Notes: a model not told the origin generated them from the sequence alone. DNA of 64,000 nucleotides from an uncultured Pseudomonadota bacterium (GCA_949286215.1 CASDYX010000004.1:20001-84000); one strand, 5' to 3'. Positions 4,490 through 40,230 are shown, counted from the stretch's first letter. Translations and numbers: made by a program.

Positions 4490-4490
4490 C

Positions 4491-10057: not shown

Positions 10058-10078
10058 TTCCTAATACCTTAATCTACC

Positions 10079-10813: not shown

Positions 10814-10821
10814 TGGTTTTC

Positions 10822-11010: not shown

Positions 11011-11124
11011 GTCTTAATTTCCTTATCTATATTATTCGAGTACTCTTATAGATGTTATGAAATTATACTCTTTTTCATTAAAAGTCTAATATCGTCTTGC
11101 GAAAATCCCCAACTTATCAACAAA

Positions 11125-11883
11125 CTATAATATTTCTACTTCAGCTTGCGAGTAGCGCGTGACGGTAAAACCTATCGGATTAATCAATCTCAAGCCCGTA
11201 AATTCTCGCCCGGGGATGAAAAATGCCGTGACTGATGCCGTCCAATATTTAACTGTCATTATTCTGGCGCGGGTCTTTTTATCTACCGCATATTTTGATA
11301 ATTCATAAGTTTTGAAATCCACTTTCCAGACAGGGCTTCTCTCTCCGCCTTGTTTGCCTATGGAGATAATTTCTACTTCTCTAACTATGCCATCGTGGCG
11401 CATTTTTTCCCAAATGCTGTCACGGTACTGAGAAAACTCGTTATAAACTCTTGGAGCTGACAAAAAATTAACCATTCCGCCGTCATACCAGCGAACTTGC
11501 ATTTCTCTTTCATCATCAATTATGGTGTTGCGAAGAATTACAAATTGCGCAACAAAAATTTCCATGAGCTTGTTTTTAGATGCCATCCGGTTTGTAATTG
11601 CTTCTGCGCGAACTATCCCCTCAGATGTATCTTGATTGATGATTAAAAACGGCTCGACCGAAACCTGTGGCGCTAACTTAAAAAGGGCCAAAGAAAAACT
11701 CATAAACACTAAAAGTGATAATATTGCAAAAAATATAAAAAGACGTGAAAGCCACATATAATATTTAAGCTTAAAGCCTTCTTTTTCTTGCTCTGTTTCG
11801 CTGATGAACTCGTGCGTTTGGCCGTTAGAATCCGTCAATGACAGAACCTTGGCGCCTTCTAACTGCGGATTTATATTGTTCAT
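11125..11883 (-). CDS. virB8: VirB8-family paralog
   Basis: The TM is LFIFFAILSLLVFMSFSLALF. The C-terminal INPIGFTVTRYSQ matches the VirB8 signature and parallels 10079..10813. Confidence 0.7.
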   Translation of the reverse strand: MNNINPQLEGAKVLSLTDSNGQTHEFISETEQEKEGFKLKYYMWLSRLFIFFAILSLLVFMSFSLALFKLAPQVSVEPFLIINQDTSEGIVRAEAITNRMASKNKLMEIFVAQFVILRNTIIDDEREMQVRWYDGGMVNFLSAPRVYNEFSQYRDSIWEKMRHDGIVREVEIISIGKQGGERSPVWKVDFKTYELSKYAVDKKTRARIMTVKYWTASVTAFFIPGREFTGLRLINPIGFTVTRYSQAEVEIL

Positions 11884-11898
11884 CTCGTCCTCTTGCCG

Positions 11899-16512: not shown

Positions 16513-16525
16513 TCTTTTTCTCCTT

Positions 16526-17881: not shown

Positions 17882-18663
17882 GAGTCCTCCTCGGCATAGG
17901 TAAATTGTCTTGCCTGTTGAGTGCTATTAAATTCAAAAAGCATAGTGTTCATCAGCATTATTTTGCGAAATCGTTTAGCCATTTCCATTGATTTTGACTT
18001 TGTACTTTGAATTATATCTCGCGTATTTTCTTTGTCGGTTTCTTCGGCTTCTTCTTTTGCCAGATTAGATCTGATACTAAAAGCTGTTGCATATAAGTTA
18101 GCAAAATTGGCACGCTGAATTTCGTTCATCTTTTCTTCTTGCTCGTTATATATTTTGACCAAATCTGTTGTTTCTGAACTATCAGCGTTGCTTGATGTTG
18201 ATTGATTGCTTGCAGATGATGAGGTGCTTGTGTTGGATTTTGGGCGTTGCATAAAATAGTTGTTTTGGACAGCTGAGCTGAGTGCTTTAGCATCATTTAA
18301 GTCTACCTTGGTGGCAAAACCCGGCATTGAGCTACCCAAAGTGTCGAGTGAACCTTCAGGATCATTGGCAAAATTTTGCACTGCATTTACTTTATCTTTA
18401 ACAGCACTAATGTTATTGCTAATATCATTTTTTACCGAATTTACGGTATTGACAGCACTTTTGACTGTTCCCATAGCTCCCTCTGCTGCAGAGCGGATAT
18501 CTTGCTGAATTTCGTTTAAATCTTGTTGAACAGAACGAGCCTCTTCCAATCCTGTTTTGATCGGACCTAAGACTGTTCCTTGCACAGCTTCAATATCCGC
18601 ATAAGATACCTGCGGCCAAAACAAGCTTAGCGCCAACAAGAAATATGTCGACAGCCTTTTCAT
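17878..18663 (-). CDS. Secreted alpha-helical protein of 261 aa; possibly a VirB5/TrbJ-like minor pilus component by size and position
   Basis: It has a signal peptide MKRLSTYFLLALSLFWPQVSYA. It is translationally coupled at both ends. No family motif was recognised with confidence. Confidence 0.55.
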   Translation of the reverse strand: MKRLSTYFLLALSLFWPQVSYADIEAVQGTVLGPIKTGLEEARSVQQDLNEIQQDIRSAAEGAMGTVKSAVNTVNSVKNDISNNISAVKDKVNAVQNFANDPEGSLDTLGSSMPGFATKVDLNDAKALSSAVQNNYFMQRPKSNTSTSSSASNQSTSSNADSSETTDLVKIYNEQEEKMNEIQRANFANLYATAFSIRSNLAKEEAEETDKENTRDIIQSTKSKSMEMAKRFRKIMLMNTMLFEFNSTQQARQFTYAEEDS

Positions 18664-27914: not shown

Positions 27915-28253
27915 TTAAATGTTACCAAATGTGGTTGCTAAGCCTGCTTCGGTAGAACCGGTTGCATATTCAACGATTGAACCTGCGGCTGCCAAAATTG
28001 CCAAACCTACTGCAAGGCCGGCAAACCAAGTCCATTTTACCTTACCAATAATTGCTGAGTAAGCAATACCGACCAAACCGAAACCACCTAAAATAAAGGT
28101 AATGGTTTTAACACTATCAAATACGTTACGTGTTTTCGTAGTTGCAGTATTCATCAAGCTGGCACCATCAGCCCAAGCTTCTCCACAAAAACCCATTGCT
28201 ACAATCAAGGTCAAGCAGCAAAGAGTTAAAATATTTTTCTTAATAAATTTCAT
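27915..28253 (-). CDS. virB2: VirB2/TrbC-family pilin
   Basis: It is 112 aa with a signal peptide ending AWA/DG and two hydrophobic helices. It is the first gene of the minus-strand cluster. Confidence 0.75.
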   Translation of the reverse strand: MKFIKKNILTLCCLTLIVAMGFCGEAWADGASLMNTATTKTRNVFDSVKTITFILGGFGLVGIAYSAIIGKVKWTWFAGLAVGLAILAAAGSIVEYATGSTEAGLATTFGNI

Positions 28254-28553
28254 ATTCTTTCTCCTTAATTAACGCAAAACTTCTTATACTCTTTTAGGAT
28301 AGCTAATTTTTGGCTTTTTGACCAGAAGAAAGAGCACTTCCTAAAATTCTATAACGCCTTGTTTTTGCAAGATATATTTTCCTGTAACAAAAAATTCACA
28401 GAACTGAAACATATCTAAACACCTTATTTTTAATGCTAAAAGGTAAATTTTTCTCTAACAGATTTTGTTTATCTTTTATTTTTGCTTTTTAGAAAAAATT
28501 TTCTTTGTTCATTTTGTGCATAATTTTATATCTGCCTTGCCAAGAGTCGTATA
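28254..28553. promoter_or_regulatory. AT-rich divergent intergenic region between the T4SS pilin operon (leftward) and the type IVb pilus operon (rightward)
   Basis: This is 300 nt of non-coding, very AT-rich sequence between two divergent first genes. It contains the near-palindrome agaaaaaattttct at 28490-28503. Confidence 0.5.
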
Positions 28554-30554
28554 TTGAATTATCAAGGGGTTAGAGGGGTTTTTATTTTGATGGGAAAAAC
28601 AGGTTTAAAAACTTTCGTTTGTAGCTTTACTTTCTCTTTGTTTGCCTTTGTTTGGGCGGGCAAGGAGTTCTTTGTTTTGTCCCAACCTCCTCAAAACGAT
28701 ATTGTTATTCCCAACAAAAATATCTCTTTGTTTTTTAAAGGAATGTCAGCAGATGCTCCGGCTTTGAAAACAATTCCCGTAAAAAAAATTGCGTTATCTG
28801 TTCCTCTTACTTTATCTAAAGATGAAGTTCCTCAGTCAGAATCCCCCTCTATTGAAAAAACTGAGGCTTCTCAAGACAACAAAACAGAGAAGCACAAAGA
28901 CTTAATTCCCTTAACTTTTGCTGAAAACGACATTGAATTTGATTTAAATGAAGATGCGTTGAAATCAAATCAATCTTCCAGCAAAGATAAGAATATTACG
29001 GCACAGAAACAAGCAGAACCTCAAAAAATTGCTCAAAATTTTCAAAAATTTATTGAGCAAAAGCCTGATATAGAGACAAAAGAGCTCCCTAAAGCCGATG
29101 AAACCTCGCTCAGTGAGGAAGAGGAAGATTTTTTTGTAAACAAGCCCCTATTGGCAAATGTGCAAATTTTGCGTCCCAATGCTAAAAACGTACAAAAAAT
29201 CCGCAAAGACCTTCCCTTATCATCAGAGGCAGAAGAAAAGCCTGCAGACGCTTCTATTCCTATGGACACCCAAGTCCCAAAAAATGAAGCTGAGCAATTA
29301 TCTGGTGAACAGCAAGAAGACCATCATTTGATTGCCATGGTACCTGATGAAGAACCCCAAGACAAGCAAGAAGCCAATATTGCGCCTAAACGCCCCATTC
29401 TTCCAGCTTTCAAAGTTGCAAAGGCAAAAACTAACCCTGAAACTTCTCCCAAGGTAGTGACACAAGACAACGGTAAAGATATTGTAGCCCAAGCCCCTAA
29501 AAACCTCCTTATTCCTCTTGAAACAAATGAGGATGCTACCCGTATGGCTAAAGCTAAAATTATTAATGCACCCGAAGAAAATAAGCTGGCTATGAAGAGT
29601 GCAAAAGCCCCAATCAAAAGTATGGAGCAAGAAATTTCTAGAAAAACAAAAGCTACGGAAGAGGATAACACCTCCGAGTGGCAAACAATGGCTGAAAAGC
29701 AAAATTCATCTACAAACGCTTGGGTAGCAGCTAAAGGTTCAGGATATGCGCCAAACAACAAAATAAAAGACGAGCAATTCTACAAGTCTGCCGACAGAAA
29801 AGCCTTGAAAAAGGTTTTACAGGATGACACTTTGCAACCAGGTGCGTCAAAGGATATAAAACTTGCCTCAGAAACAGTGGATAATTTACTTATCCCTATC
29901 CCTGAGGATATCTTAAACGACCCAAATTTAACCCCACAACTTGTATCTTCTTCACAAAACAAAGATTTGGAAGAAAAGGTTACCGAGCAAGAAAACATCG
30001 CCTACGGCACAACCGACAAAACCTCTAAAGCAACTCCTACCAAAAAAGAAGAAAAAACCACCAAAGAGCAAGATTCAGGATTACTCAAAAGCATTACCTC
30101 TATTTTCAAGAAGGATTCAGCCAGCACTGAGCAATCCAACAAAGAAAATGATGAAGGAAGCTTTTTAGACCGCTTTAAGAGAAAAAATAAAGGCTCGGAA
30201 TTTTCGGGAAAAATTTTACCGACGGAAATTCGTTTAGCTTTTCAGCCCAATCGCGCAGAAATTTCAGGTGTTACGCTTAAATGGTTACAAGCTTTCGCCA
30301 ATAAAATCAATGAAGATAAAAATGCAGGTCTTGAAATTCGCATTGACGGCAGCAGCTCTTATGAACTGCAACAAAAGAGACTTAACCTTCTTAACAATAT
30401 TTTAGCAAGCAATGGGGTTGATTTTAATAAGGTTAATACAATTTTTACAACGAGAGAGCCAAACTCTTTTATTATCAGAACTGTTCGGATTAACAACACA
30501 AACGGAGGCATAGAGGAAAATAATGATTGGCAAGACTATTATAAGGTGTGGTAA
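28554..30554 (+). CDS. 666-aa membrane-anchored protein with a long K/E/P/A-rich low-complexity region and a C-terminal domain weakly resembling OmpA-like domains
   Basis: It has an N-terminal hydrophobic segment FVCSFTFSLFAFVWAG. It is the first gene of the plus-strand pil operon. The C-terminal 150 aa is ...RLAFQPNRAEISGVTLKWLQAFANKINEDKNAGLEIRIDGSSSYELQQKRLNLLNNILASNGVDF... Confidence 0.55.
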   Translation: MNYQGVRGVFILMGKTGLKTFVCSFTFSLFAFVWAGKEFFVLSQPPQNDIVIPNKNISLFFKGMSADAPALKTIPVKKIALSVPLTLSKDEVPQSESPSIEKTEASQDNKTEKHKDLIPLTFAENDIEFDLNEDALKSNQSSSKDKNITAQKQAEPQKIAQNFQKFIEQKPDIETKELPKADETSLSEEEEDFFVNKPLLANVQILRPNAKNVQKIRKDLPLSSEAEEKPADASIPMDTQVPKNEAEQLSGEQQEDHHLIAMVPDEEPQDKQEANIAPKRPILPAFKVAKAKTNPETSPKVVTQDNGKDIVAQAPKNLLIPLETNEDATRMAKAKIINAPEENKLAMKSAKAPIKSMEQEISRKTKATEEDNTSEWQTMAEKQNSSTNAWVAAKGSGYAPNNKIKDEQFYKSADRKALKKVLQDDTLQPGASKDIKLASETVDNLLIPIPEDILNDPNLTPQLVSSSQNKDLEEKVTEQENIAYGTTDKTSKATPTKKEEKTTKEQDSGLLKSITSIFKKDSASTEQSNKENDEGSFLDRFKRKNKGSEFSGKILPTEIRLAFQPNRAEISGVTLKWLQAFANKINEDKNAGLEIRIDGSSSYELQQKRLNLLNNILASNGVDFNKVNTIFTTREPNSFIIRTVRINNTNGGIEENNDWQDYYKVW

Positions 30555-30620
30555 GCCTTGGTAATAAGTCGTGCCTGACGCTTGATTATTTATTTTTCAA
30601 TATGTATTATAGGGAAAAAT

Positions 30621-31316
30621 ATGACAAAATATAGCTTAGGAATTAAAATTATGCGCATAAAGTTTCGGCTAATTACCGGATTAATGGGATTATTTATGAC
30701 TTCTGGGTGTTTAGGTACACTCTCCCACCCTGCACAGTTGCCTCCGGAGGCTGTGGAATGTGACGAAAACGGTAACAGAGTTTGCACGGAAACAAATTCT
30801 GCACCACAGATGCCATCTTCTCATCAGGACAGTGAGTTTGTTAATTATACAGAGGTAGCTGCCGATTATAAAGAATATGGAGAAAGAGTTCCCAGAGACC
30901 AAAATATCGCTGATGGTGGCGCAGGAAGCAATATTTCTGCCGCTGTTCCTCCGACAGTAGAAAGTGAAGTTATTGAATACGAACAAGAAATTACCGAAAC
31001 AAACGGAAATGGCTCTGATGGTTCTTCAGAATATAGTGCTGAAGATCCGGTCGAAGATTGGCTAGCTGAAGAGGGACAAACCCTAAAATCTTTGCTGACT
31101 GAGTGGAGTGAAAGAGCCGGTTGGAGATTAATTTGGAATTCAAACCGCAATTATACTTTAACCGCAGGTGCTATGTTCAGAGGTCGTTTTGCTGATGTCA
31201 GTGCTGCTCTTATCAGAGCTTTCGCTCGTGCAACCCCTGCTCCGATTGCCACATTTTATAAAGGAAACCGCGTCTTAGTTGTTGAGACAATGGAGGATGA
31301 GAATGCTTATGAATAG
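30621..31316 (+). CDS. pilL: Lipoprotein with a TcpQ/PilL-like C-terminal domain, the type IVb pilus secretin partner
   Basis: The lipobox is LFMTSGC. The C-terminal stretch WLAEEGQTLKSLLTEWSERAGWRLIWNSNRNYTLTAGAMFRGRFADVSAALIRAFARATPAPIATFYKGNRVLVV fits the TcpQ-domain pattern. The start is ambiguous among 30582, 30621 and 30651. Confidence 0.6.
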   Translation: MTKYSLGIKIMRIKFRLITGLMGLFMTSGCLGTLSHPAQLPPEAVECDENGNRVCTETNSAPQMPSSHQDSEFVNYTEVAADYKEYGERVPRDQNIADGGAGSNISAAVPPTVESEVIEYEQEITETNGNGSDGSSEYSAEDPVEDWLAEEGQTLKSLLTEWSERAGWRLIWNSNRNYTLTAGAMFRGRFADVSAALIRAFARATPAPIATFYKGNRVLVVETMEDENAYE

Positions 31317-32922
31317 AATTACCAAATATAGCTTGGGTGCATTATTGCTTGTCGCAGCAGGCTCTTGTTCCTTATCAACAAAAATGGACGCGACAGTAGA
31401 ACGCGAAGTTGAAGCTACTACAAAGTTAAAAGAAGTGGCTAAAATTCCTGATAAAGTACTGAATGATGATGTCGTTCGTGTTAAAAACGATATTTGGCTC
31501 GGCGACACCAGCCAAGTTGAGTATGACGGTCAACCTATTCCTGCTTATTTGGAAGGGAAAGACGGCATTACATTAATCAGCAATCGTCCGATTACGCTTT
31601 ATGAAATCGGTGATATGATTAATAAGATTACAGGTTTGCGCGTCAGTTATGCTACCCATTTGGAAAAAGATGTACTTGCAAATGCAGCTAAAAACAAACC
31701 TGATGCATCTTCAGTTAATGTAGATTGGACAGATCCAAGCAAGATGTTGGTTTCTTACCAAGGTCCTTTAAGCGGTTTGTTAAATGAAATAGGGTCTCGC
31801 TTTGGAATTTGGTGGAAATATGACCGAAAAGAAATTTATTTTTACAAGTACCAAACAAGAACTTTTGTACTTTACAGCTTACCGACTTCTCCTCAAGTTT
31901 CTGTGAATGTCGGTGGTTCAACAAAAGGTTCAGGCGGTACATCTCAAATTTCTTTGACCAGTGGCGCTAAAATGGACTTCTGGAAAAACATTGAGAATTC
32001 CATAAAAAATATGTTGGACAAGAGTTCAAAATATACTATGGATCCGTCAAACGGTACGATTTCGGTTACCGCAACGCCAAACGATATTAAAAAGATTGCA
32101 AAATTTATTAATGAACAAAATGTTCGCTTATCAAGACAAGTAGCTATTAGTATTAAAGTTTTGCAAGTTAGTATAGATGATAGCGACCAATATGGTTTGG
32201 ATTTGTCTGCAATATGGAAAGATCCGACTGGTGAAAGTGTTGGCATATCCAGTATTGCAGGTGGTTTAGGTCAAGATGTTACAAAGAACTTAACAATGAC
32301 TCTATTGCCAGGAAATGTTTCAATAGATGCCTCTTTGCAAGCTTTGTCTACGCAAGCTACCACAAACTTGATTACAAGTGGTACGGTAACAACTTTGAAC
32401 AACAAGCCTGCACCAATCCAAGTTGTTAAAACTCAAAACTATATTTCCGAAATTACCAAAACAAACAGCGGCGGTGATGCAAGTTATTACGACGTTTCAA
32501 CTGAGACCGAAGAAATTGAAACCGGTTTTACGATGGACGTTTTGCCGAGAATTTTGGAACATGGTCGTTTAATGTTGATGTTTAACCTGACGTTGTCTGA
32601 TTTGATTTCTTTGGAAAAAGTAAGTTTGGATGACAGAGCTGATGGTGAAACAAGTGCCGGTGGCGGTCAATATATTCAAAACCCGATTATCGAATCACGC
32701 GGCTTTACGCAAGAAGTTGCTATGAAATCCGGACAATCATTGGTTTTAACCGGCTATGAAAGAGTTGAAAACACTACAGAAAAATCAGGTGTTGGCTCTG
32801 CTGACAACTCTTTGTTGGGTGGAACAGCTAAAGCTGGAAAAGTAAGAAGCCTCTTGGTTATTATTTTAACTCCGGTTGTTTTGGATTCCCCATTATCACC
32901 CGAATCGAGAATGAAAGAATAA
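31309..32922 (+). CDS. pilN: Lipoprotein secretin of the type IVb pilus (R64 PilN / TcpC / BfpB type)
   Basis: It has a lipoprotein signal MNRITKYSLGALLLVAAGSC. The secretin C-terminal motif is ...SGVGSADNSLLGGTAKAGKVRSLLVIILTPVVL. Its ATG overlaps the pilL stop. Confidence 0.7.
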   Translation: MNRITKYSLGALLLVAAGSCSLSTKMDATVEREVEATTKLKEVAKIPDKVLNDDVVRVKNDIWLGDTSQVEYDGQPIPAYLEGKDGITLISNRPITLYEIGDMINKITGLRVSYATHLEKDVLANAAKNKPDASSVNVDWTDPSKMLVSYQGPLSGLLNEIGSRFGIWWKYDRKEIYFYKYQTRTFVLYSLPTSPQVSVNVGGSTKGSGGTSQISLTSGAKMDFWKNIENSIKNMLDKSSKYTMDPSNGTISVTATPNDIKKIAKFINEQNVRLSRQVAISIKVLQVSIDDSDQYGLDLSAIWKDPTGESVGISSIAGGLGQDVTKNLTMTLLPGNVSIDASLQALSTQATTNLITSGTVTTLNNKPAPIQVVKTQNYISEITKTNSGGDASYYDVSTETEEIETGFTMDVLPRILEHGRLMLMFNLTLSDLISLEKVSLDDRADGETSAGGGQYIQNPIIESRGFTQEVAMKSGQSLVLTGYERVENTTEKSGVGSADNSLLGGTAKAGKVRSLLVIILTPVVLDSPLSPESRMKE

Positions 32923-32934
32923 GGATTTATAAAA

Positions 32935-34212
32935 ATGGTTCTGGAAGATGCTAAATTTCAAGAACAAGATTTTGATTCGAATGTTAATCGTTCGTGGGCC
33001 ACTGAGTTTACCGTGGAAGGTATTTCTTATGCCACCAGCTTGTTTTGGCAACCTTTACAGAATAAAGATGACCCTTACACCGAAGTAGAAGAGACTGCTG
33101 GCGGTGTGTTGGAAGGGGCAGACCTCTTTTGTATAAAACCTGGTAAAGCTCCTCAATTTGGTATTTGTGTTTCTCAAGAAGGATATAAAAACGGAACACT
33201 GGCAGGTGCTGTTTCCTTATCTACTGCTCTTTCGGATCGTTCTTCTTTCGTCGGCGTGTTTAAGGTAAAAGAAGGATGGTGGTACACTTGTGTACGTAAC
33301 GATATTATCCTTTCTGATGGTGATATGCTCTTCTTAAAAGAGGAAGATGCTAAAAACCAATTCATGTCAATGCTCGCCGTTCCGGATTGGGGACGTAAAA
33401 TTGCACCTCCGGAATGGGAAATTGAAGAGACCGAATATCCCGATTTGGCTAAACTTTTGCAACGTGGCGCCAAAAGCAAGCTGCAAAAAATTAAGGCCTT
33501 AAGAGGTTCTAAATTGATTGCCGTTGTGGCGGTATCGGCAATTGTTGGGTTGTGGTTACTGTCTAGCATTATCAGCAGTATATTTTTATCACCTCCGAAA
33601 AAACCAATTATTGCGCCGGTGAGACCAAAGGTTGTTAAACCTGTAGAACAGCCCCCTGAAATTAAGCCTTGGGAAAAATTAAAGAATCCTTCCGAGATTA
33701 TGTTGCAATGCAAAACGGGCGTTAATGCTTTGTTGCATATTCTTCCGCCGGGATGGAAAATCGGAGGAATTTCTTGCAGTGATTCTTCTATTACAACATC
33801 TTGGACAAGAGAGGTGGGTCGTATCAGCTGGATTGACAAGGCTCTTAGTCGCTCGGGAATTAATTTTTCAGGAAAATCTATTTCTGATGACGGAAATACG
33901 GTTATGGTTTCTGTTCCGTTTAATAAAATAGATATTATATCTTCTCCACCTCAATATATGGGAGTTGATTTGAAAAATGTTTTAAATAATATGTTCCAAG
34001 CTATCGGGCAAGATATATCTTTGCAAAGTTTTTCTTATACGTCTCCAAGAAATAACGTATATAGATCTATCAAGTTTAGATTTAAATCTATGCAAAATCC
34101 ATCAGTTTGGAATGATTTATTAATAAAATTTTCAGGACTTGAGATTAATAGTATTAAATATGATGTAAATACGAAGCAATGGCATTACGAAGGAGCAATC
34201 TATGTCTTATAA
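32935..34212 (+). CDS. Type IVb pilus assembly protein at the R64 PilO position; 425 aa with one TM near residue 195
   Basis: The TM is LIAVVAVSAIVGLWLLSSIISSIF. Gene order L-N-O-P-Q-R-S-T matches R64/PAPI-1. No motif was confidently assigned. Confidence 0.5.
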   Translation: MVLEDAKFQEQDFDSNVNRSWATEFTVEGISYATSLFWQPLQNKDDPYTEVEETAGGVLEGADLFCIKPGKAPQFGICVSQEGYKNGTLAGAVSLSTALSDRSSFVGVFKVKEGWWYTCVRNDIILSDGDMLFLKEEDAKNQFMSMLAVPDWGRKIAPPEWEIEETEYPDLAKLLQRGAKSKLQKIKALRGSKLIAVVAVSAIVGLWLLSSIISSIFLSPPKKPIIAPVRPKVVKPVEQPPEIKPWEKLKNPSEIMLQCKTGVNALLHILPPGWKIGGISCSDSSITTSWTREVGRISWIDKALSRSGINFSGKSISDDGNTVMVSVPFNKIDIISSPPQYMGVDLKNVLNNMFQAIGQDISLQSFSYTSPRNNVYRSIKFRFKSMQNPSVWNDLLIKFSGLEINSIKYDVNTKQWHYEGAIYVL

Positions 34213-35713
34213 TACAAATTACAAATTATGCTTTGCAGCTGTGGCTCTGATTCTTGGATTAACTCCTAGTCAGAAGGCTTGGGCTGTTCTTCCTTTAGAT
34301 GCTGAGCAAAATAATTCTGCTGAAATTCCTTTAATCCCTGATGAAATTTCGCTAAATGAAACATCAGATGCCAATGCTTTGTTAACTCCTCCGTCTTTAA
34401 ATGGGAACGGTGCTCCGTCAACTCAGCAAACTGACACAATTCCTTTAAATACAACAGATAGTTCGGATACACCTATTCAAGAGTTGAATTTACCGAATCT
34501 CAATCCTGAGGCTGCAAATGCTGCACCAAACGTCCAACCTTTAGCAGCAAATGCTCCCGCTGATGGAAACAATAATCCTACAATGGTTCAGCCTTTGAAT
34601 AATACTGCTAGTAACAATGCTCCTGACACTCAGGTAAATAGTACTGCTAACAAATTTCAACAGCTTCAGTTGCTAAAACAACAAGCCAAAACGCCTGAAA
34701 GCAATAATTTCGGTGAAACGATTTTGTCGCAGATTGATAATGATTTGTTTAACCAAATGTCAGATTTGGAAAAACAGACTAGTTTGCTCAGTCTTGAATT
34801 ACGCAGAGAAAAAGTAAAAAATGAAATTGAAGCCTTAAAAGCTGCAAGACAAAAATCTATAGATGAAGCAAACGAAAAAAGAGAAGAAAAAGAGCGTAAA
34901 AAACTTGAGTGGGAACAAGAGCAACAAAGGAAATTGTTGATTGAAGAACAAAAGCTCAGAGAACTCAATTTAGCATATGAAAAATTGCGCCAAGAAAATA
35001 TTATCAAGGCCTACAAAGAAGAAATGCTTATGTCAAACCAAAAATGGATTGATACAAATGCTAAATTGTATAGAGACATTGCCAAATTGGAAGAAAGTAA
35101 TAGTAAGGTTGTAGAAGAAATGAAATTAAAACTTAACTATTTACTGCAACTTTCAGCAAAAACATCTGAAGCCGCTGAAACAGCCAAGAAAAATTACAGT
35201 AGAGAATTGGCTAACTTGCAAACCCAAGTTTCTATCTTAAAATCTCGTTTAGCTGCAGAAAAGCAGGCTCGTGAAGAAATTAATACGGCCAACAAGGATA
35301 AAACAAATCCGTTTGCGTCACTTTCTGAAGATGAAAAGAATGAAAAGAAAAGTCAAAAATTGTCCGATGAATATGCTATTATGGAAATTCGCGGACAAGG
35401 CAGCGACTTATCCGCTAAGCTCATAAACAAGAGTGGTTCTTCTTTTCAGGTTCAAAAAGGAACTATCTTGCAAACAGGTCATGAAGTCGGTGAAATTTCT
35501 CAAACCTACGTTATGGCGATGAAAAACGGCAAAAAAGAATATCTCTATTTTGCTGCCGGAGGTATTTTGGACAGAGAGCCTAAATCCGTTTCTCCCGTTT
35601 TATCTTCTGGGGTAACACCTCTGCCTAAAAAATCAGGCGGTTTAGATCCTTTACCGTCTTTAAATGCGAACCAAGGTTTGCCTAGCTTACGCGCAGGAAT
35701 GTTTGTCAGGTAA
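34202..35713 (+). CDS. Secreted low-complexity / coiled-coil protein with a small C-terminal beta domain, at the PilP position
   Basis: It has a signal peptide MSYNTNYKLCFAAVALILGLTPSQKAWA, an N/P/A/T-rich region, then a KE-rich coiled coil. The C-terminal stretch is ...AIMEIRGQGSDLSAKLINKSGSSFQVQKGTIL... Confidence 0.5.
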   Translation: MSYNTNYKLCFAAVALILGLTPSQKAWAVLPLDAEQNNSAEIPLIPDEISLNETSDANALLTPPSLNGNGAPSTQQTDTIPLNTTDSSDTPIQELNLPNLNPEAANAAPNVQPLAANAPADGNNNPTMVQPLNNTASNNAPDTQVNSTANKFQQLQLLKQQAKTPESNNFGETILSQIDNDLFNQMSDLEKQTSLLSLELRREKVKNEIEALKAARQKSIDEANEKREEKERKKLEWEQEQQRKLLIEEQKLRELNLAYEKLRQENIIKAYKEEMLMSNQKWIDTNAKLYRDIAKLEESNSKVVEEMKLKLNYLLQLSAKTSEAAETAKKNYSRELANLQTQVSILKSRLAAEKQAREEINTANKDKTNPFASLSEDEKNEKKSQKLSDEYAIMEIRGQGSDLSAKLINKSGSSFQVQKGTILQTGHEVGEISQTYVMAMKNGKKEYLYFAAGGILDREPKSVSPVLSSGVTPLPKKSGGLDPLPSLNANQGLPSLRAGMFVR

Positions 35714-35721
35714 GATGAAAT

Positions 35722-37386
35722 ATGGCCGAAGAGGAAAATACAGAAGCCACCAATGAAAACAGCAGTCAAGGTTCAGGACAAGTCATTGGTGCTTCTGATG
35801 CAGAAGGGCAAAAAAAATACAATATTATCGAAGATTTATTCAGTAACGGGAATAAGTTATTAACTCTTCCCGGCTCTTCTTTAGTGATTAATGATGATAC
35901 CAGACGTCTTTTGGCTTTATTTGCTGATGGGCGTTTTTTGGTCGTTGAATCTCATAAGTTTGACGGACGCGTTTTGAGCTTTGAGGTTTTAGCGCGCAAA
36001 AAACACTTAAATATCAGTAAACCAACCTATGTAAGCCAAAATGAAATCAATGCTGTTTACGCTTACGGAGAACGTGCTCAGCCTCTTTCTAATATTGAAG
36101 GTGATGAAGACTTAGACCAACTGCAAATGCAGAAGGACTTTGTTAACGTCGTAGCCCGTGCAGCTGCAATGAAAGTGTCTGACGTGCACGTGGTTGTGGC
36201 TGACAGTACGCAAATTATGTTTCGCGTTAACGGCATGATGCAAACCGTTATGGAATATAATAAAGACTGGGGAGAATCTTTTGTTCGTGCAGCATTTGCT
36301 TCTTCTGATATTTCAGATTCAAACTATGCTCAAAATGAATTCCAAGGGGCTCAAAAATTAGGTTCAACACCATTGCGTGGCTCTAAAGGTAAGTTAATGT
36401 TACCGCATAACGTCTTGGCTATTCGTTTGCAATTTAACCCGATTGCATTCGGTTCTCAATATTTGGTTATGCGTTTGCTTTATGCGGATGAAAACCCTGA
36501 TGGAAGCGGCGACTTACAGGCTCTTGGATTTGGTGAATATGAAGAAAATCTGTTTTATCGACTACGTGCTGTTCCTACAGGGTTGAGTGTTATTGCGGGG
36601 CCTACGGGTTCGGGTAAATCAACAACCTTACAGCGCAATATGATTAAGCTCTTGCAAGAAAAAAATTACGAAATTAACCTTATCACCGTGGAAGATCCTC
36701 CCGAATATCCAATTCCAGGCGCAAGGCAAATGCCTGTGACCAATGCTAATACGGAAGAAGAAAAAGCCGAAATGTTTACCAAAGCTTTGTCTGCAGCTTT
36801 GCGTTCAGACCCTGATGTTATGATGGTGGGTGAAACACGTGCTTTGGCAACCGCTGAATTAACATTTAAGGGAGCTCTTTCAGGACACGGTGTTTGGACA
36901 ACTTTGCACGCAAACAGTGCGCCGGCGATTATTACCCGTTTACGTGATATGGGTATCCAACCTTATATGTTGGCCGACCCTGAACTCGTAAAGGGATTAA
37001 TTTCACAACGTTTGTTTAGAAAACTTTGCCCTCACTGCCGAGTTTCGGTGAAAGAAAGACTTAATGATCCTGCAGTTAAAAGATTGCGTATTGCATTAGG
37101 TGATTTTGGTATTGAAAATACCTTTGTGCGTGGTCCCGGATGTAAGTTTTGCGATAATAAAGGCATCAAAGGGCGTATGAGTGTGCCTGAAATTATTTTA
37201 CCTGATGCTGTTTTTCTCGAATTAATGATTGCTGGCGAAACCAGAAAAGCTATCGATTATTGGACCAGTGATTTGAATGGCAGACCTCTTCGTGATGCCG
37301 CGATTGAGCGTATGTTAAAAGGTTATATTGATTTAGATGAAGTTGAGCGTTGGTGCGGTTTGCTTGACCAACGGCCGTCTTACTAG
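35722..37386 (+). CDS. pilQ: GspE/PilB-family assembly ATPase (R64 PilQ type)
   Basis: The Walker A motif is VIAGPTGSGKST. It carries Asp/His boxes, and a tetracysteine motif CPHC...CKFC is typical of GspE-family ATPases. Confidence 0.8.
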   Translation: MAEEENTEATNENSSQGSGQVIGASDAEGQKKYNIIEDLFSNGNKLLTLPGSSLVINDDTRRLLALFADGRFLVVESHKFDGRVLSFEVLARKKHLNISKPTYVSQNEINAVYAYGERAQPLSNIEGDEDLDQLQMQKDFVNVVARAAAMKVSDVHVVVADSTQIMFRVNGMMQTVMEYNKDWGESFVRAAFASSDISDSNYAQNEFQGAQKLGSTPLRGSKGKLMLPHNVLAIRLQFNPIAFGSQYLVMRLLYADENPDGSGDLQALGFGEYEENLFYRLRAVPTGLSVIAGPTGSGKSTTLQRNMIKLLQEKNYEINLITVEDPPEYPIPGARQMPVTNANTEEEKAEMFTKALSAALRSDPDVMMVGETRALATAELTFKGALSGHGVWTTLHANSAPAIITRLRDMGIQPYMLADPELVKGLISQRLFRKLCPHCRVSVKERLNDPAVKRLRIALGDFGIENTFVRGPGCKFCDNKGIKGRMSVPEIILPDAVFLELMIAGETRKAIDYWTSDLNGRPLRDAAIERMLKGYIDLDEVERWCGLLDQRPSY

Positions 37387-37389
37387 GGA

Positions 37390-38520
37390 GTGAATTCTAT
37401 GGCTCAAGAAGAAAAAAAACATTCCGAAGCTCTGACAAGAGCTATGAAAAAAGTTGGTGCTATTGAAATTCAATACGCAAAACTCGTTACTAAAATGTCA
37501 AACAAAACGCGCCTTAAAATGTATCGTAAAATCGCATCATTAATGTCTAACCGATTTTCATTGATGGATGCTCTTGATTTGCTTTATGATGGCGCCAGTA
37601 ATGGCGGTCGAAGCCCTAGTGAACCAATTGCTATTGCTATTGCGGCTTGGTCTAAGTCCTTGCAAAACGGTTTGACCTTTGCAGAAGCTTTGAAAGGTTG
37701 GGCTCCGGCCAGAGAAAGATTGATGCTTTCTACCGGTGACGTATCAAACCTGGAAAGTGCTTTACTCAACCTTATTAAAGTTACCGAAGGTACAACCAAG
37801 ATGGTTCGACCAATTGTCGGAGCTGTTGCTTATCCGTCATTTTTGATGTTTATGGCAGTTTTGATTTTGTATGGTATTGGCGCTTATATGGTACCGCCAA
37901 TGCAAGATGCGGCTCCTAATGTTCGTTGGCGTGGAAGTGCTAAAACCTTGGTCGATGTTTCTGATTGGATTAGAACTTATTGGCAAGTTGCATTTGCTTC
38001 TCTTCCGGCAACTATGCTAATTATTTATGCTACAATCGGTATTTGGACAGGTTTTATTCGCTCTTTCTTTGATAATTTGCCACCTTGGTCTTTGTATAAG
38101 GTATTTACAGGTATCAGTTGGTTGCTGGCTATGTCTGCTTTAGTTAAGAGCGGAACACCGGTTTCTACTTCTTTACAAGCTCTGAGACGTGACGCAAATC
38201 CTTACTTAAGAGAGAGAATCGACAAGACATTAACCTTTGTTAACAATGGTGATAACTTAGGTCAGGCCTTGGAAAAAACCGGTTTGGAGTTTCCTGACCG
38301 TGAAATTATCGCCGACCTGAAGGTCTACTCAGAACTTGATAACTTTGAAGAAGCAATGGATAAATTAGCAAATGAATGGCTGGAAGATTCCGTATATATG
38401 ATTGAACAAAAAGCCAGCGTCTTAAATATGATTGCATTACTTTCCGTTGGTGGTATTATTGCTTGGGCCGTTATGGGCGTATTTGATATGCAAGACCAAA
38501 TTACAAGTGCTATGGGATAA
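37390..38520 (+). CDS. pilR: GspF/PilC/TadB-like inner-membrane platform protein (R64 PilR type)
   Basis: It is 376 aa with three hydrophobic segments (VGAVAYPSFLMFMAVLILYGIGAYM, etc.) and a GspF-like cytoplasmic domain arrangement. Confidence 0.65.
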   Translation: MNSMAQEEKKHSEALTRAMKKVGAIEIQYAKLVTKMSNKTRLKMYRKIASLMSNRFSLMDALDLLYDGASNGGRSPSEPIAIAIAAWSKSLQNGLTFAEALKGWAPARERLMLSTGDVSNLESALLNLIKVTEGTTKMVRPIVGAVAYPSFLMFMAVLILYGIGAYMVPPMQDAAPNVRWRGSAKTLVDVSDWIRTYWQVAFASLPATMLIIYATIGIWTGFIRSFFDNLPPWSLYKVFTGISWLLAMSALVKSGTPVSTSLQALRRDANPYLRERIDKTLTFVNNGDNLGQALEKTGLEFPDREIIADLKVYSELDNFEEAMDKLANEWLEDSVYMIEQKASVLNMIALLSVGGIIAWAVMGVFDMQDQITSAMG

Positions 38521-38524
38521 AACT

Positions 38525-39124
38525 ATGGAAAAAATTAAGCAATATTTATCTATCTATAAGCAGAAAATTTTATCTAGTTCCGTTTTTGCAAAGTTGGGGC
38601 AAAAAATCATCATTGCCACAACCATTATTACTGCCGTTTTGGTCGGAATTTTAGCTTGGATTATCAGACCTAACCCTGAAATTAATCAGGCCGCAGTTCA
38701 ATTGGCTCAAACGGCTAATAATATTCGTTTATTCTATCAAACAAAACCAGGATATTGGGGGTTAAACACTGATAGCGTGATTAAAAATAATCTTTACGCT
38801 TCCGGTATGTTGAAAGATGTAAAACTTTATAATGCCTTCGGGAAACCTGTCATTATCGGTCAAGATACTGAGGGAAATATTGTAATGCCTGGAAGCAGAA
38901 ACTTTGTAATTACGTTTCCAGAGTTATCTAAAAAAGAATGCACGGCTATGGCTGCTTTTAAGCTCAATGAAAGAGAGAATCTTACACTTTTGCAAATGGT
39001 GATTTTGACAGACGGACAAAGATTTGATTTTACTTGGGGAGGAAAAAATCCTCTTCCCGTAACAAAAACCGAAGCTGCAAAATTTTGTGGGAGCAAAAAT
39101 ACTGTCGCTTGGAGCTTTGAATAA
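38525..39124 (+). CDS. pilS: Pilin-like protein at the PilS position, with an atypical N-terminus lacking Glu5
   Basis: The N-terminus is MEKIKQYLSIYKQKILSSSVFAKLG/QKIIIATTIITAVLVGILAWII. It has a Gly and an N-terminal hydrophobic helix, but no Glu at position +5. The track ORF starts earlier at 38432, overlapping pilR. Confidence 0.45.
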   Translation: MEKIKQYLSIYKQKILSSSVFAKLGQKIIIATTIITAVLVGILAWIIRPNPEINQAAVQLAQTANNIRLFYQTKPGYWGLNTDSVIKNNLYASGMLKDVKLYNAFGKPVIIGQDTEGNIVMPGSRNFVITFPELSKKECTAMAAFKLNERENLTLLQMVILTDGQRFDFTWGGKNPLPVTKTEAAKFCGSKNTVAWSFE

Positions 39125-39219
39125 ACTAAAATTTGTCATAAAAGATTAAACAAATATTATTCTTTTTTATGATAAACTGTCGGTTATAGTTTTAAGTTCC
39201 GTTGATTTACGAGGGCATA

Positions 39220-40182
39220 ATGGTTAAACTCAGTGAAGTTTTATTTTCAGATATTTATATTACTCCAGAAAAAGTAGCTTATATTCCGGATAACGTAACA
39301 CCTAACGGATTGGAAGTTTTAAAAGCTGACGATTTTGAAGATTTCTTTGAATTACTTGAACAATCTTGGGATGGTTCAAACCCTAGTTATTCCGTTGTAT
39401 TTGACAATGTTTTTTACCGCGTTGAGAGAACGGTTTCTATTTATGGAATTCAATATTGTGCACGTAAAATGCCAAAACAAGTTCCTCCGTTTAGCAGTTT
39501 AGGTTATCCTATTGAGCTTTCAAAATATTTACTTTCTCTCAGTAATGCTTCCGGCTTAATTCTTTGTGGCGGACCGACTGGTGCCGGTAAAACAACTACG
39601 ATTTCCAGTTTATTAAAAGAATTTTTGACAATGGAAGGCGGCTTCGCTTACACAATCGAAGATCCGACCGAAATGCCGTTAGACGGTGTTTATCACTCTG
39701 TAGCCGGAGGTTTGGGATTGTGTAAACAAACTCTGCCTCCTAACGGAATGTGGGGCGAGGGTTTGAAATCTGCTTTGCGTTCTAAACCTCGTTTTATTTT
39801 GGTTGGTGAGATTCGTACACCCGATACGGCAAGTGAAGTTTTGCGCGCAGCAACGTCCGGACACTTGGTATTGTCAACTATTCACGCTAATAATATTACT
39901 GATGCGATTAACTCCGTTGTTAAGTATGCATCATCTACATCCATGAGTGAAGAATTGGCTTACGACCTGTTCTCCCGTGGTATGCTTGGCGTTTTACACC
40001 AAACACTTATTGGTGTTAAAGATAAAAAACCGCTGGTCAGCTATTTGTTTGCTAACCCAGATTCGACTAAAGGCGACCAAGTTCGTGGTATTATTAAGGG
40101 TGGAAAACTTAACTTAGGAACATCTATTGAAACGCAAATGACGCGTATGAGCCGAGGAAAGAATATTTTCCCTGACTTATAA
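39220..40182 (+). CDS. pilT: PilT/PilU-family (retraction-type) ATPase
   Basis: The Walker A motif is LCGGPTGAGKTTT. The motifs FILVGEIRTPDTA and SGHLVLSTIHANN are present. GAGGG is 6 nt upstream of the ATG at 39220; the track start at 39202 is the alternative. Confidence 0.75.
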   Translation: MVKLSEVLFSDIYITPEKVAYIPDNVTPNGLEVLKADDFEDFFELLEQSWDGSNPSYSVVFDNVFYRVERTVSIYGIQYCARKMPKQVPPFSSLGYPIELSKYLLSLSNASGLILCGGPTGAGKTTTISSLLKEFLTMEGGFAYTIEDPTEMPLDGVYHSVAGGLGLCKQTLPPNGMWGEGLKSALRSKPRFILVGEIRTPDTASEVLRAATSGHLVLSTIHANNITDAINSVVKYASSTSMSEELAYDLFSRGMLGVLHQTLIGVKDKKPLVSYLFANPDSTKGDQVRGIIKGGKLNLGTSIETQMTRMSRGKNIFPDL

Positions 40183-40230
40183 TAGATAGACCTGAGCAAA
40201 ATCGGGGTTTTCTGTAAGACTTTAAGCAAC

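What the first reader, a model, noticed from the sequence alone, without database searches (positions are those of the whole stretch)
28554..40182. R64/PAPI-1-style type IVb pilus locus divergent from the T4SS, with a non-canonical pilin and no prepilin peptidase
The gene order is membrane protein, TcpQ-domain lipoprotein, lipoprotein secretin, two accessory proteins, GspE-type ATPase, GspF-type platform, pilin-like protein and PilT-type ATPase. This mirrors the pilL-N-O-P-Q-R-S-T clusters that accompany conjugative systems such as the IncI1 thin pilus and PAPI-1/SPI-7. Here the partner is a VirB-like T4SS rather than Dot/Icm-like or GI-type. The only pilin candidate (…SSVFAKLG/QKIIIATTIIT…) lacks the almost invariant Glu5, and no PilU/TadV-type peptidase is in the cluster. 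Both an assembly ATPase and a retraction ATPase are present.
Basis: partly seen in the sequence, partly recalled or inferred. Interest (0 to 1): 0.7.

Follow-up and report, generated by a model that had tools for sequence, protein, structure and literature searches.

The report
BFP-like type IVb pilus locus, pilin lost
This is a chromosomal type IVb pilus machine in an uncultured gut alphaproteobacterium, closest to the E. coli bundle-forming pilus; its odd "pilin" is a membrane-anchored copy of the real pilin, whose gene relatives keep next door and this lineage has lost from the locus.

Summary
The nine-gene cluster is real and intact. It encodes a membrane protein with an OmpA-like end, a TcpQ/BfpG protein, a secretin, PilO2/BfpC, a PilP-like protein, an extension ATPase, a platform, a pilin-fold protein and a PilT/BfpF-type ATPase. 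It lies divergent from a VirB-type T4SS.

It matches EPEC BFP better than R64. It is chromosomal, syntenic and vertically inherited in uncultured gut Alphaproteobacteria related to Candidatus Scatocola, with housekeeping flanks and no relaxase in the window.

The pilin candidate lacks Glu5, and Gly-1 is not conserved among its homologues. About 100 clusters at 50% identity carry a plain N-terminal membrane anchor instead of a class III signal.

It is a paralogue of a canonical bundlin/PilS-type prepilin (MTNLLKKNDQTG|RSMVEML). Relatives carry one to three copies of that gene between it and the retraction ATPase. The window's clade has none there, and none in the 64 kb.

All nine genes are under strong purifying selection. 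No prepilin peptidase lies in the window or in 18 related loci.

The most likely reading is that the pilin-like protein is an accessory part, and that the filament subunit and peptidase are encoded elsewhere. This was not testable here. Verdict: a new variant of a known kind, of moderate interest.

The parts
28254..28589 (.). Divergent intergenic region between the VirB2 gene (- strand) and the first pilus gene (+ strand).
   Evidence: ORF map. One sigma-70-like site at 28318-28347, no more than shuffles give. The same head-to-head arrangement occurs in L019 and L021.
28590..30554 (+). Lineage-specific bitopic membrane protein (ORF from 28554; likely start ATG 28590, 654 aa). It has an N-terminal TM anchor, a long low-complexity linker, the conserved motif LLIPIPEDILND-NLTPQLVSS, and a conserved C-terminal OmpA/MotB/Pal-like domain. 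It probably anchors the machine to peptidoglycan.
   Evidence: No Pfam or NCBIfam hit. Alignment with five relatives. Sequence searches of the C-terminal domain were negative. The single-sequence AF2 model has pLDDT 59.5. Its top 50 Foldseek PDB hits are almost all OmpA/MotB/Pal-type peptidoglycan-binding domains, prob 1.0.
30621..31316 (+). TcpQ/BfpG-type secretin partner, a probable lipoprotein (ORF from 30582).
   Evidence: PF10671 2e-16. hhalign to BfpG gives 98.2%, E 2.7e-14; to R64 PilL 82%. tblastn to BfpG gives 34%, E 3e-16.
31279..32922 (+). Type IVb secretin (BfpB/PilN type), a probable lipoprotein.
   Evidence: PF00263 1.6e-14 and TIGR02520 1.7e-79. Best plasmid matches are BfpB at 31% and PilN-family proteins at 29%.
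32935..34212 (+). PilO2/BfpC bitopic assembly protein. In homologues the N-terminal domain is actin-like and cytoplasmic.
   Evidence: PF06864 3.8e-14. hhalign to BfpC gives 97.8%, E 1e-12 over 371 columns; to R64 PilO 90% over the C-terminal half only. The fold and role of homologues are described in PMC3984277.
34202..35713 (+). PilP-like periplasmic protein with a long low-complexity and coiled-coil N-terminal extension.
   Evidence: TIGR03021 scores 35.0 bits against a cutoff of 34.65, over residues 334-437. hhalign to R64 PilP and BfpU is not significant.
35722..37386 (+). Extension ATPase (BfpD/PilQ/GspE type) with Walker A and two CxxC motifs.
   Evidence: PF00437 1.7e-65. BfpD 35%, E 3.5e-93; R64 PilQ 30%, E 1e-47. 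Motifs read from the sequence.
37390..38520 (+). Platform protein (BfpE/PilR/GspF type).
   Evidence: PF00482 3.9e-26. BfpE 34%, E 2.7e-68; R64 PilR 26%.
38525..39124 (+). Pilin-fold protein (199 aa) with a basic N-terminus and a TM anchor but no class III signal: no Glu5, and Gly-1 not conserved in the family. It is a paralogue of the lineage's canonical pilin.
   Evidence: Bundlin PF05307 at 23.2 bits. Alignments A1 and of distant members. hhalign to canonical pilins gives 95%, E 3.9e-8; to BfpA 89.7%. The AF2 model's top 7 PDB hits are CofA, TcpA and S. Typhi PilS. About 100 clusters at 50% identity all lack G-x4-E.
39125..39219 (.). Short intergenic gap at the place where relatives carry one to three canonical prepilin genes. 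No remnant is visible.
   Evidence: Gene maps of L005-L012, L019 and L021 compared with the window, L001-L004 and L013-L015. Alignment of the gap.
39220..40182 (+). PilT/BfpF-type retraction ATPase (ORF from 39202; 320 aa in relatives).
   Evidence: TIGR01420 4.3e-32. BfpF 31% over full length, E 4.7e-40; only partial matches in R64. A terminator-like hairpin lies at 40191-40206.
2..28253 (-). Neighbouring VirB-type T4SS (context, not part of the pilus). Genes: VirB2 x2 (27915-28253, 27426-27875), a 1145-aa protein, VirB3-like (23480-23767), VirB4 (21055-23487, interrupted), three proteins without family hits, a 1537-aa protein, VirB8 x2, VirB9-SPOR (8411-10057), a beta-flower/RHS protein, and a giant VirB10/TrbI (2-4450, cut by the window end).

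Best explanation
The locus encodes a type IVb pilus machine of the bundle-forming-pilus (BFP) kind. It is inherited vertically on the chromosome of an uncultured gut alphaproteobacterium related to Candidatus Scatocola.

Shown by homology:
- a BfpG/TcpQ-BfpB secretin pair in the outer membrane;
- a BfpC/PilO2 protein, a PilP-like protein, a BfpE platform and a BfpD extension ATPase in the inner membrane;
- a BfpF-type ATPase for retraction.

Inferred from a low-confidence fold model: a lineage-specific inner-membrane protein with an OmpA/MotB-like end ties the machine to peptidoglycan.

The gene taken for the pilin is a paralogue of the true pilin. It has exchanged the class III signal and the conserved alpha1-N helix for an ordinary, fast-evolving membrane anchor. 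I infer that it stays in the inner membrane as an accessory part of the machine and is not a filament subunit.

The true subunit in this lineage is a bundlin/PilS-type prepilin (leader MTNLLKKNDQTG, mature RSMVEMLGVLAIIGVLS..., with Glu at +5). It is present in one to three copies right after the pilin-like gene in relatives. The window's clade has lost it from that site.

All nine genes have stayed under strong purifying selection since that loss, so the machine is still in use. The most likely reason (inferred, not shown) is that the subunit gene lies elsewhere in the genome. The prepilin peptidase must also lie elsewhere in every relative that has a canonical pilin.

Likely role, by analogy with BFP: retractile pili for aggregation or adhesion in the gut.
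For: Machine identity: Pfam and NCBIfam hits.

Closer to BFP than to R64 for six components: tblastn and hhalign. The same core order, TcpQ-secretin-PilO2-x-ATPase-platform-ATPase, occurs in EPEC BFP and in two other enterobacterial plasmid clusters.

Chromosomal and vertical:
- Relatives are MAGs of uncultured Alphaproteobacteria and Ca. Scatocola faecipullorum.
- They share gene order and the same housekeeping flank.
- GC is even, 37-42%.

The pilin-like protein is a pilin paralogue without a class III signal:
- Gly-1 varies (G/D/V) and no Glu5 occurs in 16 homologues, nor in three distant ones.
- Nearly all of the ~100 family representatives listed lack G-x4-E; the two regex hits are one chance match far beyond the membrane anchor and one canonical pilin.
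- hhalign to the canonical pilins gives 95%, E 3.9e-8, with both Cys aligned.
- The model's best PDB matches are type IVb pilins.
- Across the same eight genomes the first 55 residues are 82% identical among canonical pilins but 30% among pilin-like proteins. The globular parts are about 50% in both.

Canonical pilins sit next door in relatives.

Absent from the window: tblastn and a motif scan of all six frames.

Machine maintained: dN/dS is 0.01-0.20 for all nine genes, at dS of about 0.7 to above 3 (p666 saturated against L004), against six members of the clade that lacks the pilin.

Peptidase outside the cluster in all relatives. Precedent in PAPI-1/PilD: PMC8565334, PMC3984277.
Against: - No canonical pilin or prepilin peptidase of this genome has been seen.
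- The accessory role of the pilin-like protein is inferred from sequence patterns only.
- The window's clade mostly keeps a Gly at the would-be -1 position (LG/QKIII), so cleavage by a peptidase cannot be excluded there. L013 and L014 lack both the Gly and the canonical pilin.
- The pilin-like model has modest confidence (pLDDT 68). The OmpA-like model is weaker (59.5).
- BFP's minor pilins BfpI/J/K, BfpL, BfpH and BfpP have no counterpart here, so the analogy to BFP is partial.
Confidence: 0.6

Rival explanations
1. This is an R64/PAPI-1-style accessory thin pilus that serves the neighbouring T4SS, for example by stabilising mating pairs or target-cell contact. It uses an unconventional pilin.
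For: The head-to-head arrangement with the T4SS is conserved down to relatives with 65-71% PilO identity. An extra VirB2/TrbC gene sits just after the retraction ATPase in L002, L013 and L014, so T4SS genes flank the pilus locus on both sides there. PilO2, PilP, the PilN-type secretin and the pilin position after the platform gene are R64-like.
Against: Every comparable component is closer to BFP than to R64. There is no PilV adhesin or shufflon, no PilM and no PilU. No relaxase or coupling protein was found in 64 kb, and the flanks are housekeeping genes. L020 has the pilus locus without a T4SS beside it. The unconventional pilin is accompanied by canonical pilins in relatives.
Confidence: 0.2
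2. In the window's clade the machine works with no class III pilin and no prepilin peptidase. The anchored pilin-fold protein is its only pilin-like substrate, and the machine has a changed role. Possibilities are a short piston-like structure, secretion, or support for the T4SS.
For: No canonical pilin lies in the locus in at least eight contigs of the clade or anywhere in the 64-kb window. All nine genes are nevertheless under strong purifying selection at dS of 0.7 and above. No peptidase was found in any of 18 loci.
Against: Only 64 kb of the genome was seen. Pilin genes often lie apart from their machines. Sister lineages with the same machine use canonical pilins. The retained retraction ATPase fits a normal retractile filament. 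No type IV filament machine without a class III pilin is known (my own knowledge; the ancestral machine is described as pilin, peptidase, ATPase, platform and secretin in PMC10191384).
Confidence: 0.15
3. The locus is a decaying remnant. Loss of the pilin gene inactivated the pilus, and the remaining genes are on the way to becoming pseudogenes.
For: The pilin gene is gone from the locus. The neighbouring VirB4 carries an in-frame stop in this window.
Against: All nine pilus ORFs are intact in the window and in seven or more diverged relatives that lack the pilin, with dN/dS of 0.01-0.20.
Confidence: 0.05

Closest known systems
Bundle-forming pilus (BFP) of enteropathogenic E. coli (bfpA-G-B-C-U-D-E-F-P-H-I-J-K-L)
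   Same: The core order BfpG/TcpQ - BfpB secretin - BfpC/PilO2 - small periplasmic protein - BfpD - BfpE - BfpF is the same. BFP gives the best matches for TcpQ, PilO, both ATPases and the platform. For the secretin, BfpB and an unnamed E. coli BFP-like plasmid cluster score equally. The lineage's canonical pilin is 26-27% identical to bundlin over its full length, E 4e-17. A retraction ATPase is present.
   Different: There is no peptidase (BfpP), no lytic transglycosylase (BfpH), no minor pilins BfpI/J/K and no BfpL. The pilin genes lie between the platform and the retraction ATPase instead of first. There is an extra first gene with an OmpA-like end and an extra anchored pilin-fold paralogue. 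The locus is chromosomal in an alphaproteobacterium and sits next to a T4SS. This window has no canonical pilin gene.
R64 (IncI1) thin pilus and its PAPI-1 / B. pseudomallei Tfp7 relatives (pilL-M-N-O-P-Q-R-S-T-U-V)
   Same: It belongs to the same type IVb class. A PilN-type lipoprotein secretin, PilO2 (PF06864), a PilP-like protein, an ATPase and a platform are followed by the pilin gene. It is linked to a T4SS. PAPI-1 and Tfp7 also lack a cluster-encoded peptidase and borrow one (PMC3984277, PMC8565334).
   Different: Sequence similarity is lower for every component. There is no PilV adhesin or shufflon and no PilM. R64's gene in the pilT position is a lytic transglycosylase. The partner T4SS is VirB-type, and no conjugation genes were seen. 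PAPI-1 and SPI-7 themselves were not compared here.
Tip or initiator minor pilins that naturally lack Glu5 (GspK / PilK class)
   Same: It is a pilin-fold protein without Glu5, encoded in the machine's operon (comparison from my own knowledge).
   Different: GspK-class proteins keep the class III signal with Gly-1 and are cleaved by the prepilin peptidase. The family here has no conserved Gly-1, a variable N-terminus and a globular domain related to the major pilin. hhalign finds BfpA but not BfpI/J/K.

Membership tests
Type IVb pilus machinery | Secretin of the PilN/BfpB/TcpC type with a TcpQ/BfpG-type partner | tested here: met
   PF00263 1.6e-14. TIGR02520 1.7e-79, at 268 bits just under its 288-bit cutoff. 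PF10671 2e-16. BfpB 29-31% and BfpG 34%.
Type IVb pilus machinery | PilO2/BfpC (PF06864) bitopic protein, extension ATPase and GspF-type platform in one operon | tested here: met
Type IVb pilus machinery | Prepilin with a class III signal peptide (Gly-1, Glu+5) | tested here: not met
   None in the 64-kb window. Met in relatives at the same site.
Type IVb pilus machinery | Dedicated A24 prepilin peptidase | tested here: not met
   None in the window or in 18 related loci, 378 kb in all. The whole genome cannot be tested with these tools. PAPI-1 shows that the enzyme can be encoded elsewhere (PMC8565334).
BFP variant of type IVb pili | BfpF-type retraction ATPase after the platform gene | tested here: met
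   31% identity over full length, E 4.7e-40. TIGR01420 4.3e-32.
BFP variant of type IVb pili | Bundlin-type major pilin | tested here: inconclusive
   The window's pilin-like protein passes the Bundlin gathering score (23.2 against 22.3) but has no class III signal. Relatives' canonical pilins hit Bundlin and PilS and match BfpA at E 4e-17.
BFP variant of type IVb pili | BfpP, BfpH, minor pilins BfpI/J/K, and BfpL | tested here: not met
   No matches by tblastn or hhalign.
R64/PAPI-1 thin-pilus variant | PilV tip adhesin (with shufflon in R64) and PilM | tested here: not met
   hhalign of the pilin-like family to R64 PilV and PilM was not significant. The tightly packed locus has no further ORF.
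R64/PAPI-1 thin-pilus variant | Carried on a conjugative plasmid or ICE (relaxase, coupling protein, integrase) | tested here: not met
   None detected in 64 kb. The flanks are housekeeping genes and are conserved across species. The T4SS continues beyond the left edge of the window, so more genes may lie there.
Tad/Flp pilus | TadA/CpaF ATPase, TadB/TadC, RcpA and a Flp pilin | tested here: not met
   The ATPases score only 34-42 bits on TIGR03819, against 211-221 bits on the PilB and GspE models. The secretin and accessory proteins are of type IVb kind.
Type II secretion system | Pseudopilins GspG-K and GspC/L/M | tested here: not met
   No such genes in the cluster. The GspD model scores only 36 bits.

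The most novel reading that the evidence does not exclude
A type IV filament machine has been kept under strong purifying selection for a long time (dS of 0.7 and above) in a clade that has no class III signal pilin and no prepilin peptidase at all. A membrane-anchored, uncleaved pilin-fold protein would be its only pilin-like component. That would make it a peptidase-independent or filament-less type IVb machine, possibly working together with the adjacent VirB-type T4SS.
Probability: 0.13. Interest if true: 0.85.

Novelty: new variant of a known kind. Interest (0 to 1): 0.5.

Why it matters
Type IVb pili are known mainly from enteric pathogens and conjugative elements. Here the same machine is a conserved chromosomal trait of a widespread, uncultured group of gut Alphaproteobacteria. 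PilO homologues form 677 clusters at 90% identity, and one pilin sequence is indexed in 262 blocks of the assembly collection.

Two features are not described for known systems. The first is a large family of major-pilin paralogues that have replaced the class III signal with an ordinary membrane anchor. The second is a clade that keeps the whole machine although the canonical pilin genes have left the locus.

If the pilin and peptidase turn out to be elsewhere, this is an interesting variant with a new accessory part. If they are absent, it would challenge the rule that type IV filament machines need a prepilin and a prepilin peptidase.

The canonical pilin is very variable in its outer half and in copy number (0-3). 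That points to selection at the cell surface by the host or by phages.

Tried and rejected
1. I asked whether Gly at the would-be -1 position of the pilin-like protein tracks loss of the canonical pilin, which would suggest regained cleavage. Most members of the pilin-less clade have LG/QK. L013 and L014 have FD/QK and also lack the pilin. Rejected as a rule.

2. I tried to identify the C-terminal domain of the first gene by sequence. A PDB profile search and Pfam at E up to 10 gave nothing meaningful. Only the fold search on a weak model pointed to OmpA/MotB/Pal.

3. I looked for a prepilin peptidase and a lytic transglycosylase in the window and 18 loci by tblastn and a three-sequence HMM. 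There was one stray tblastn hit (R64 PilU against L006, E 0.003). It lies on the opposite strand inside the kinase gene and was not seen by the HMM. Rejected.

4. I looked for a remnant of the pilin gene in the 95-bp gap before the retraction ATPase. There is none.

5. Literature searches for this lineage's pili or T4SS (RF32, Scatocola) found only microbiome surveys.

I did not try to walk along contigs, because look-ups are limited to proteins of the window or of earlier searches.

7. PilP-like against BfpU or R64 PilP by hhalign was not significant. The PilP assignment rests on a borderline NCBIfam hit.

Full report
**Observation**

The stretch 28554-40182 holds nine tightly packed + strand ORFs. 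Family scans give the following.
- 30582-31316: TcpQ, PF10671, 2e-16.
- 31279-32922: a secretin, PF00263, 1.6e-14. The best NCBIfam is the PilN-family type IVB secretin TIGR02520 at 1.7e-79, at 268 bits just under its 288-bit cutoff.
- 32935-34212: PAP_PilO, PF06864, 3.8e-14.
- 34202-35713: a borderline PilP match, TIGR03021, 35.0 bits against 34.65.
- 35722-37386: a GspE/PilB-type ATPase, PF00437, 1.7e-65.
- 37390-38520: a GspF-type platform, PF00482, 3.9e-26.
- 38525-39124: a 199-aa protein that just passes the Bundlin gathering score (23.2 against 22.3 bits).
- 39202-40182: a PilT-family ATPase, TIGR01420, 4.3e-32.
- The first ORF has no family hit.

The pilin-like N-terminus is MEKIKQYLSIYKQKILSSSVFAKLG/QKIIIATTIITAVLVGILAWII. 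It has no Glu in the hydrophobic segment.

No A24 peptidase turned up in Pfam scans of essentially all ORFs of at least 100 aa in the window. None turned up by tblastn or a small HMM.

The - strand upstream carries a VirB-type T4SS. It has two VirB2/TrbC genes, a weak VirB3 match, VirB4, two VirB8 genes, VirB9 with a SPOR domain, and a giant protein with a TrbI/VirB10 domain that runs off the left edge.

**Where it comes from**

A scan of one genome per species with the pilin-like family found six loci. All are MAGs of uncultured Alphaproteobacteria from gut samples, one of them named Candidatus Scatocola faecipullorum. NCBI places that genus in Rhodospirillales incertae sedis.

All six show the same nine genes in the same order. 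In every locus that extends far enough (all but L005, whose contig ends after PilT), the same housekeeping genes follow: a phosphoribosyltransferase, a redoxin, VWA, PP2C, a kinase and an NMO-like protein.

The right half of the window is ordinary chromosome: rpsA, cmk, a DnaJ-family (CbpA-like) chaperone, and methyltransferases. GC is even at 37-42%. No relaxase, coupling protein or integrase was seen.

This is a vertically inherited chromosomal locus, not a mobile element.

**Which known system it resembles**

I compared it with annotated EPEC BFP, another BFP-like E. coli plasmid cluster, and R64. Every comparable protein is closer to BFP.

| Window protein | BFP match | R64 match |
|---|---|---|
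| Extension ATPase | BfpD 35%, E 3.5e-93 | PilQ 30%, E 1e-47 |
| Platform | BfpE 34%, E 2.7e-68 | PilR 26%, E 6e-30 |
| Second ATPase | BfpF 31% over full length, E 4.7e-40 | partial only (PilQ, TraJ) |
| TcpQ protein | BfpG 34%, E 3e-16 | PilL, E 4e-4 |

The secretin is about 29% identical to both.

Profile comparisons agree. PilO against BfpC gives 97.8%, E 1e-12, over 371 columns. PilO against R64 PilO gives 90% over the C-terminal half only. TcpQ against BfpG gives 98.2%.

A Salmonella plasmid cluster with the best match to the second ATPase (35%) has the same core order.

In R64 the gene in the pilT position is annotated as a lytic transglycosylase and the next gene as the prepilin peptidase. 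A paper on the R64 variant describes PilT2 of B. pseudomallei Tfp7 as an ATPase. It also reports that PAPI-1 and Tfp7 lack pilU2 and borrow a peptidase (PMC3984277; also PMC8565334 for PilD and PilS2).

Tad and T2SS readings fail. The TadA-type model scores about 40 bits, GspD scores 36 bits, and there are no pseudopilins or GspC/L/M.

**The pilin-like protein**

Its 32 close homologues were aligned as 16 representatives. They show no Glu in the hydrophobic segment, and the would-be -1 residue is G, D or V.

More distant members from loci found through PilO also have only a basic stretch followed by a 20-residue hydrophobic anchor.

A full HMM search of 1.84 billion representatives found 104 clusters at 50% identity with E up to 1e-10. 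In their N-termini the G-x4-E pattern occurs only twice. One is a chance match far beyond the anchor, and the other is a canonical pilin.

The fold is nonetheless a type IVb pilin fold. The AF2 model (pLDDT 68) has CofA, TcpA and S. Typhi PilS as its seven best PDB matches, prob 1.0. The family profile matches BfpA (89.7%, E 1.9e-6). It does not match BfpI/J/K/L or R64 PilM/PilV.

**The missing canonical pilin**

In L005 and L006 an extra gene lies between the pilin-like gene and the retraction ATPase. It reads MTNLLKKNDQTG|RSMVEMLGVLAIIGVLSVGGIAGYSKAM..., with Gly at -1 and Glu at +5. It hits PilS_N (2e-16), Bundlin (1e-11) and, weakly, N_methyl. It matches BfpA at 26-27% over its full length.

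The same arrangement holds in L007-L012. Farther relatives have two copies (L020, L021) or three (L019), the third being divergent and possibly a minor pilin.

The window, L001-L004 and L013-L015 have only a 41-95-bp gap there. These are all the loci whose pilin-like protein is at least 70% identical to the window's.

tblastn with the canonical pilin and a six-frame motif scan find nothing in the whole 64 kb.

The outgroups carry the gene, so the simplest history is loss from the locus in the window's clade.

The canonical pilin and the pilin-like protein are paralogues. hhalign gives 95%, E 3.9e-8, with both cysteines aligned.

Their conservation patterns are opposite. Across the same eight genomes the first 55 residues are 82% identical among canonical pilins and 30% among pilin-like proteins. 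The globular parts are about 50% in both.

A filament subunit and peptidase substrate must keep its N-terminal helix. The pilin-like protein does not. I therefore read it as a membrane-anchored accessory part of the machine. This is an inference.

**Is the machine still used?**

I measured dN/dS against six members of the clade that lacks the pilin. It is 0.01-0.07 for the secretin, PilO, both ATPases and the platform. It is 0.04-0.15 for the pilin-like gene and 0.05-0.20 for the three genes with low-complexity regions. In these comparisons dS runs from about 0.7 to above 3.

The locus is not decaying. Either the subunit gene, and a peptidase gene, lie elsewhere in the genome, or the machine works without them.

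I could not search the rest of these genomes, so this stays open. I give the first option about four times the weight of the second. Three points favour it: pilin genes are often unlinked, sister lineages with the same machine use canonical pilins although no peptidase is in their loci either, and a retraction ATPase is retained.

**The first gene**

Relatives start at MGKTGLKTF, which corresponds to ATG 28590 in the window. The protein has a TM anchor, a long variable linker, a conserved LLIPIPEDILND-NLTPQLVSS motif, and a conserved C-terminal domain of about 115 residues.

Sequence searches of that domain failed. A single-sequence AF2 model (pLDDT 59.5) gave OmpA, MotB and Pal peptidoglycan-binding domains as almost all of its 50 best PDB matches (E about 1e-5, rmsd about 3 A). 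An Asp and an Arg that are invariant in the alignment lie where OmpA-like domains bind peptidoglycan; this placement is read by eye.

A peptidoglycan anchor is a reasonable but weakly supported role.

**Link to the T4SS**

The head-to-head arrangement with VirB2-VirB2-(large protein)-VirB3-VirB4 is kept in L019 and L021. L002, L013 and L014 have an extra VirB2 gene after the retraction ATPase. L020 has the pilus genes beside housekeeping genes, without a T4SS and without the retraction ATPase.

The linkage is therefore frequent but not obligatory. Functional coupling is possible but not shown.

**Verdict**

This is a BFP-like type IVb pilus locus of a gut alphaproteobacterial lineage.

It is a new variant of a known kind because of three features: an anchored pilin paralogue that forms a large undescribed family, an OmpA-like first gene, and loss of the canonical pilin genes from the locus in one clade while the machine is maintained.

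Its interpretation is partly right. Interest is moderate, and it would be high if whole genomes of the clade prove to lack both the prepilin and the peptidase.

Noticed in passing
window 22381-22383 (- strand), within VirB4 21055-23487: VirB4 is split into 368-aa and 435-aa ORFs by one in-frame TGA. L019 and L021 have Arg at this position and encode an intact 810-aa protein. With the stop read through, the window gene is also 810 codons. This is a nonsense mutation (probably CGA to TGA), a population variant or a sequencing error. If real, the T4SS of this genome may be inactive.
   Followed up: partly
window 2-4450 (- strand, cut by the window edge) and 4491-8414 (- strand): The T4SS operon ends with two giant proteins full of beta-flower/DUF3659/RHS-type repeats. 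The first also carries a TrbI/VirB10 domain (PF03743, 7e-34) at its C-terminal end, so it is a VirB10 more than 1,400 residues long with a repeat-rich extension.
   Followed up: partly
window 8411-28253 (- strand): The T4SS has duplicated VirB2 and VirB8 genes, a VirB9 fused to a SPOR peptidoglycan-binding domain, and five large or medium proteins (1145, 773, 261, 451 and 1537 aa) with no family hit beyond coiled-coil noise. No VirB11, VirD4 or relaxase was seen in the window.
   Followed up: partly
L002 11857-12189; L013 11904-12185; L014 11847-12185: An extra TrbC/VirB2-family gene, 76% identical to the window's VirB2 at 27915-28253, sits between the retraction ATPase and the phosphoribosyltransferase gene in some relatives. 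It is absent from the window.
   Followed up: no
L005-L012, L019-L021 (canonical pilin genes); one search hit list: The canonical pilin is very variable. Dozens of the best hits are single-member clusters at 90% identity with the same 205-aa length. The N-terminal ~100 residues are almost invariant and the C-terminal half varies. Copy number per locus ranges from 0 to 3. This suggests diversifying selection on a surface-exposed subunit.
   Followed up: partly
L020 (GCA_964017795.1, CAXHLX010000005.1) 5965-17814: A relative has the pilus locus with two canonical pilins but no retraction ATPase after them and no T4SS upstream. Housekeeping genes flank it on both sides.
   Followed up: no
window 41476-44361 (+ strand): A VWA - PP2C phosphatase - Ser/Thr kinase gene triad with overlapping ORFs lies just downstream of the pilus locus. 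It is kept at 81-99% protein identity in all relatives that extend that far, and VWA is often more conserved than the pilus machine itself.
   Followed up: no
window 58474-62040 (+ strand): A 1188-aa AIDA-type autotransporter adhesin (PF03797 8e-29, PF16168) is a second candidate surface adhesin in the window.
   Followed up: no
window 51422-52396 (+ strand): A protein matches the Mito_fiss_Elm1 family (PF06258) strongly, 4.5e-68.
   Followed up: no
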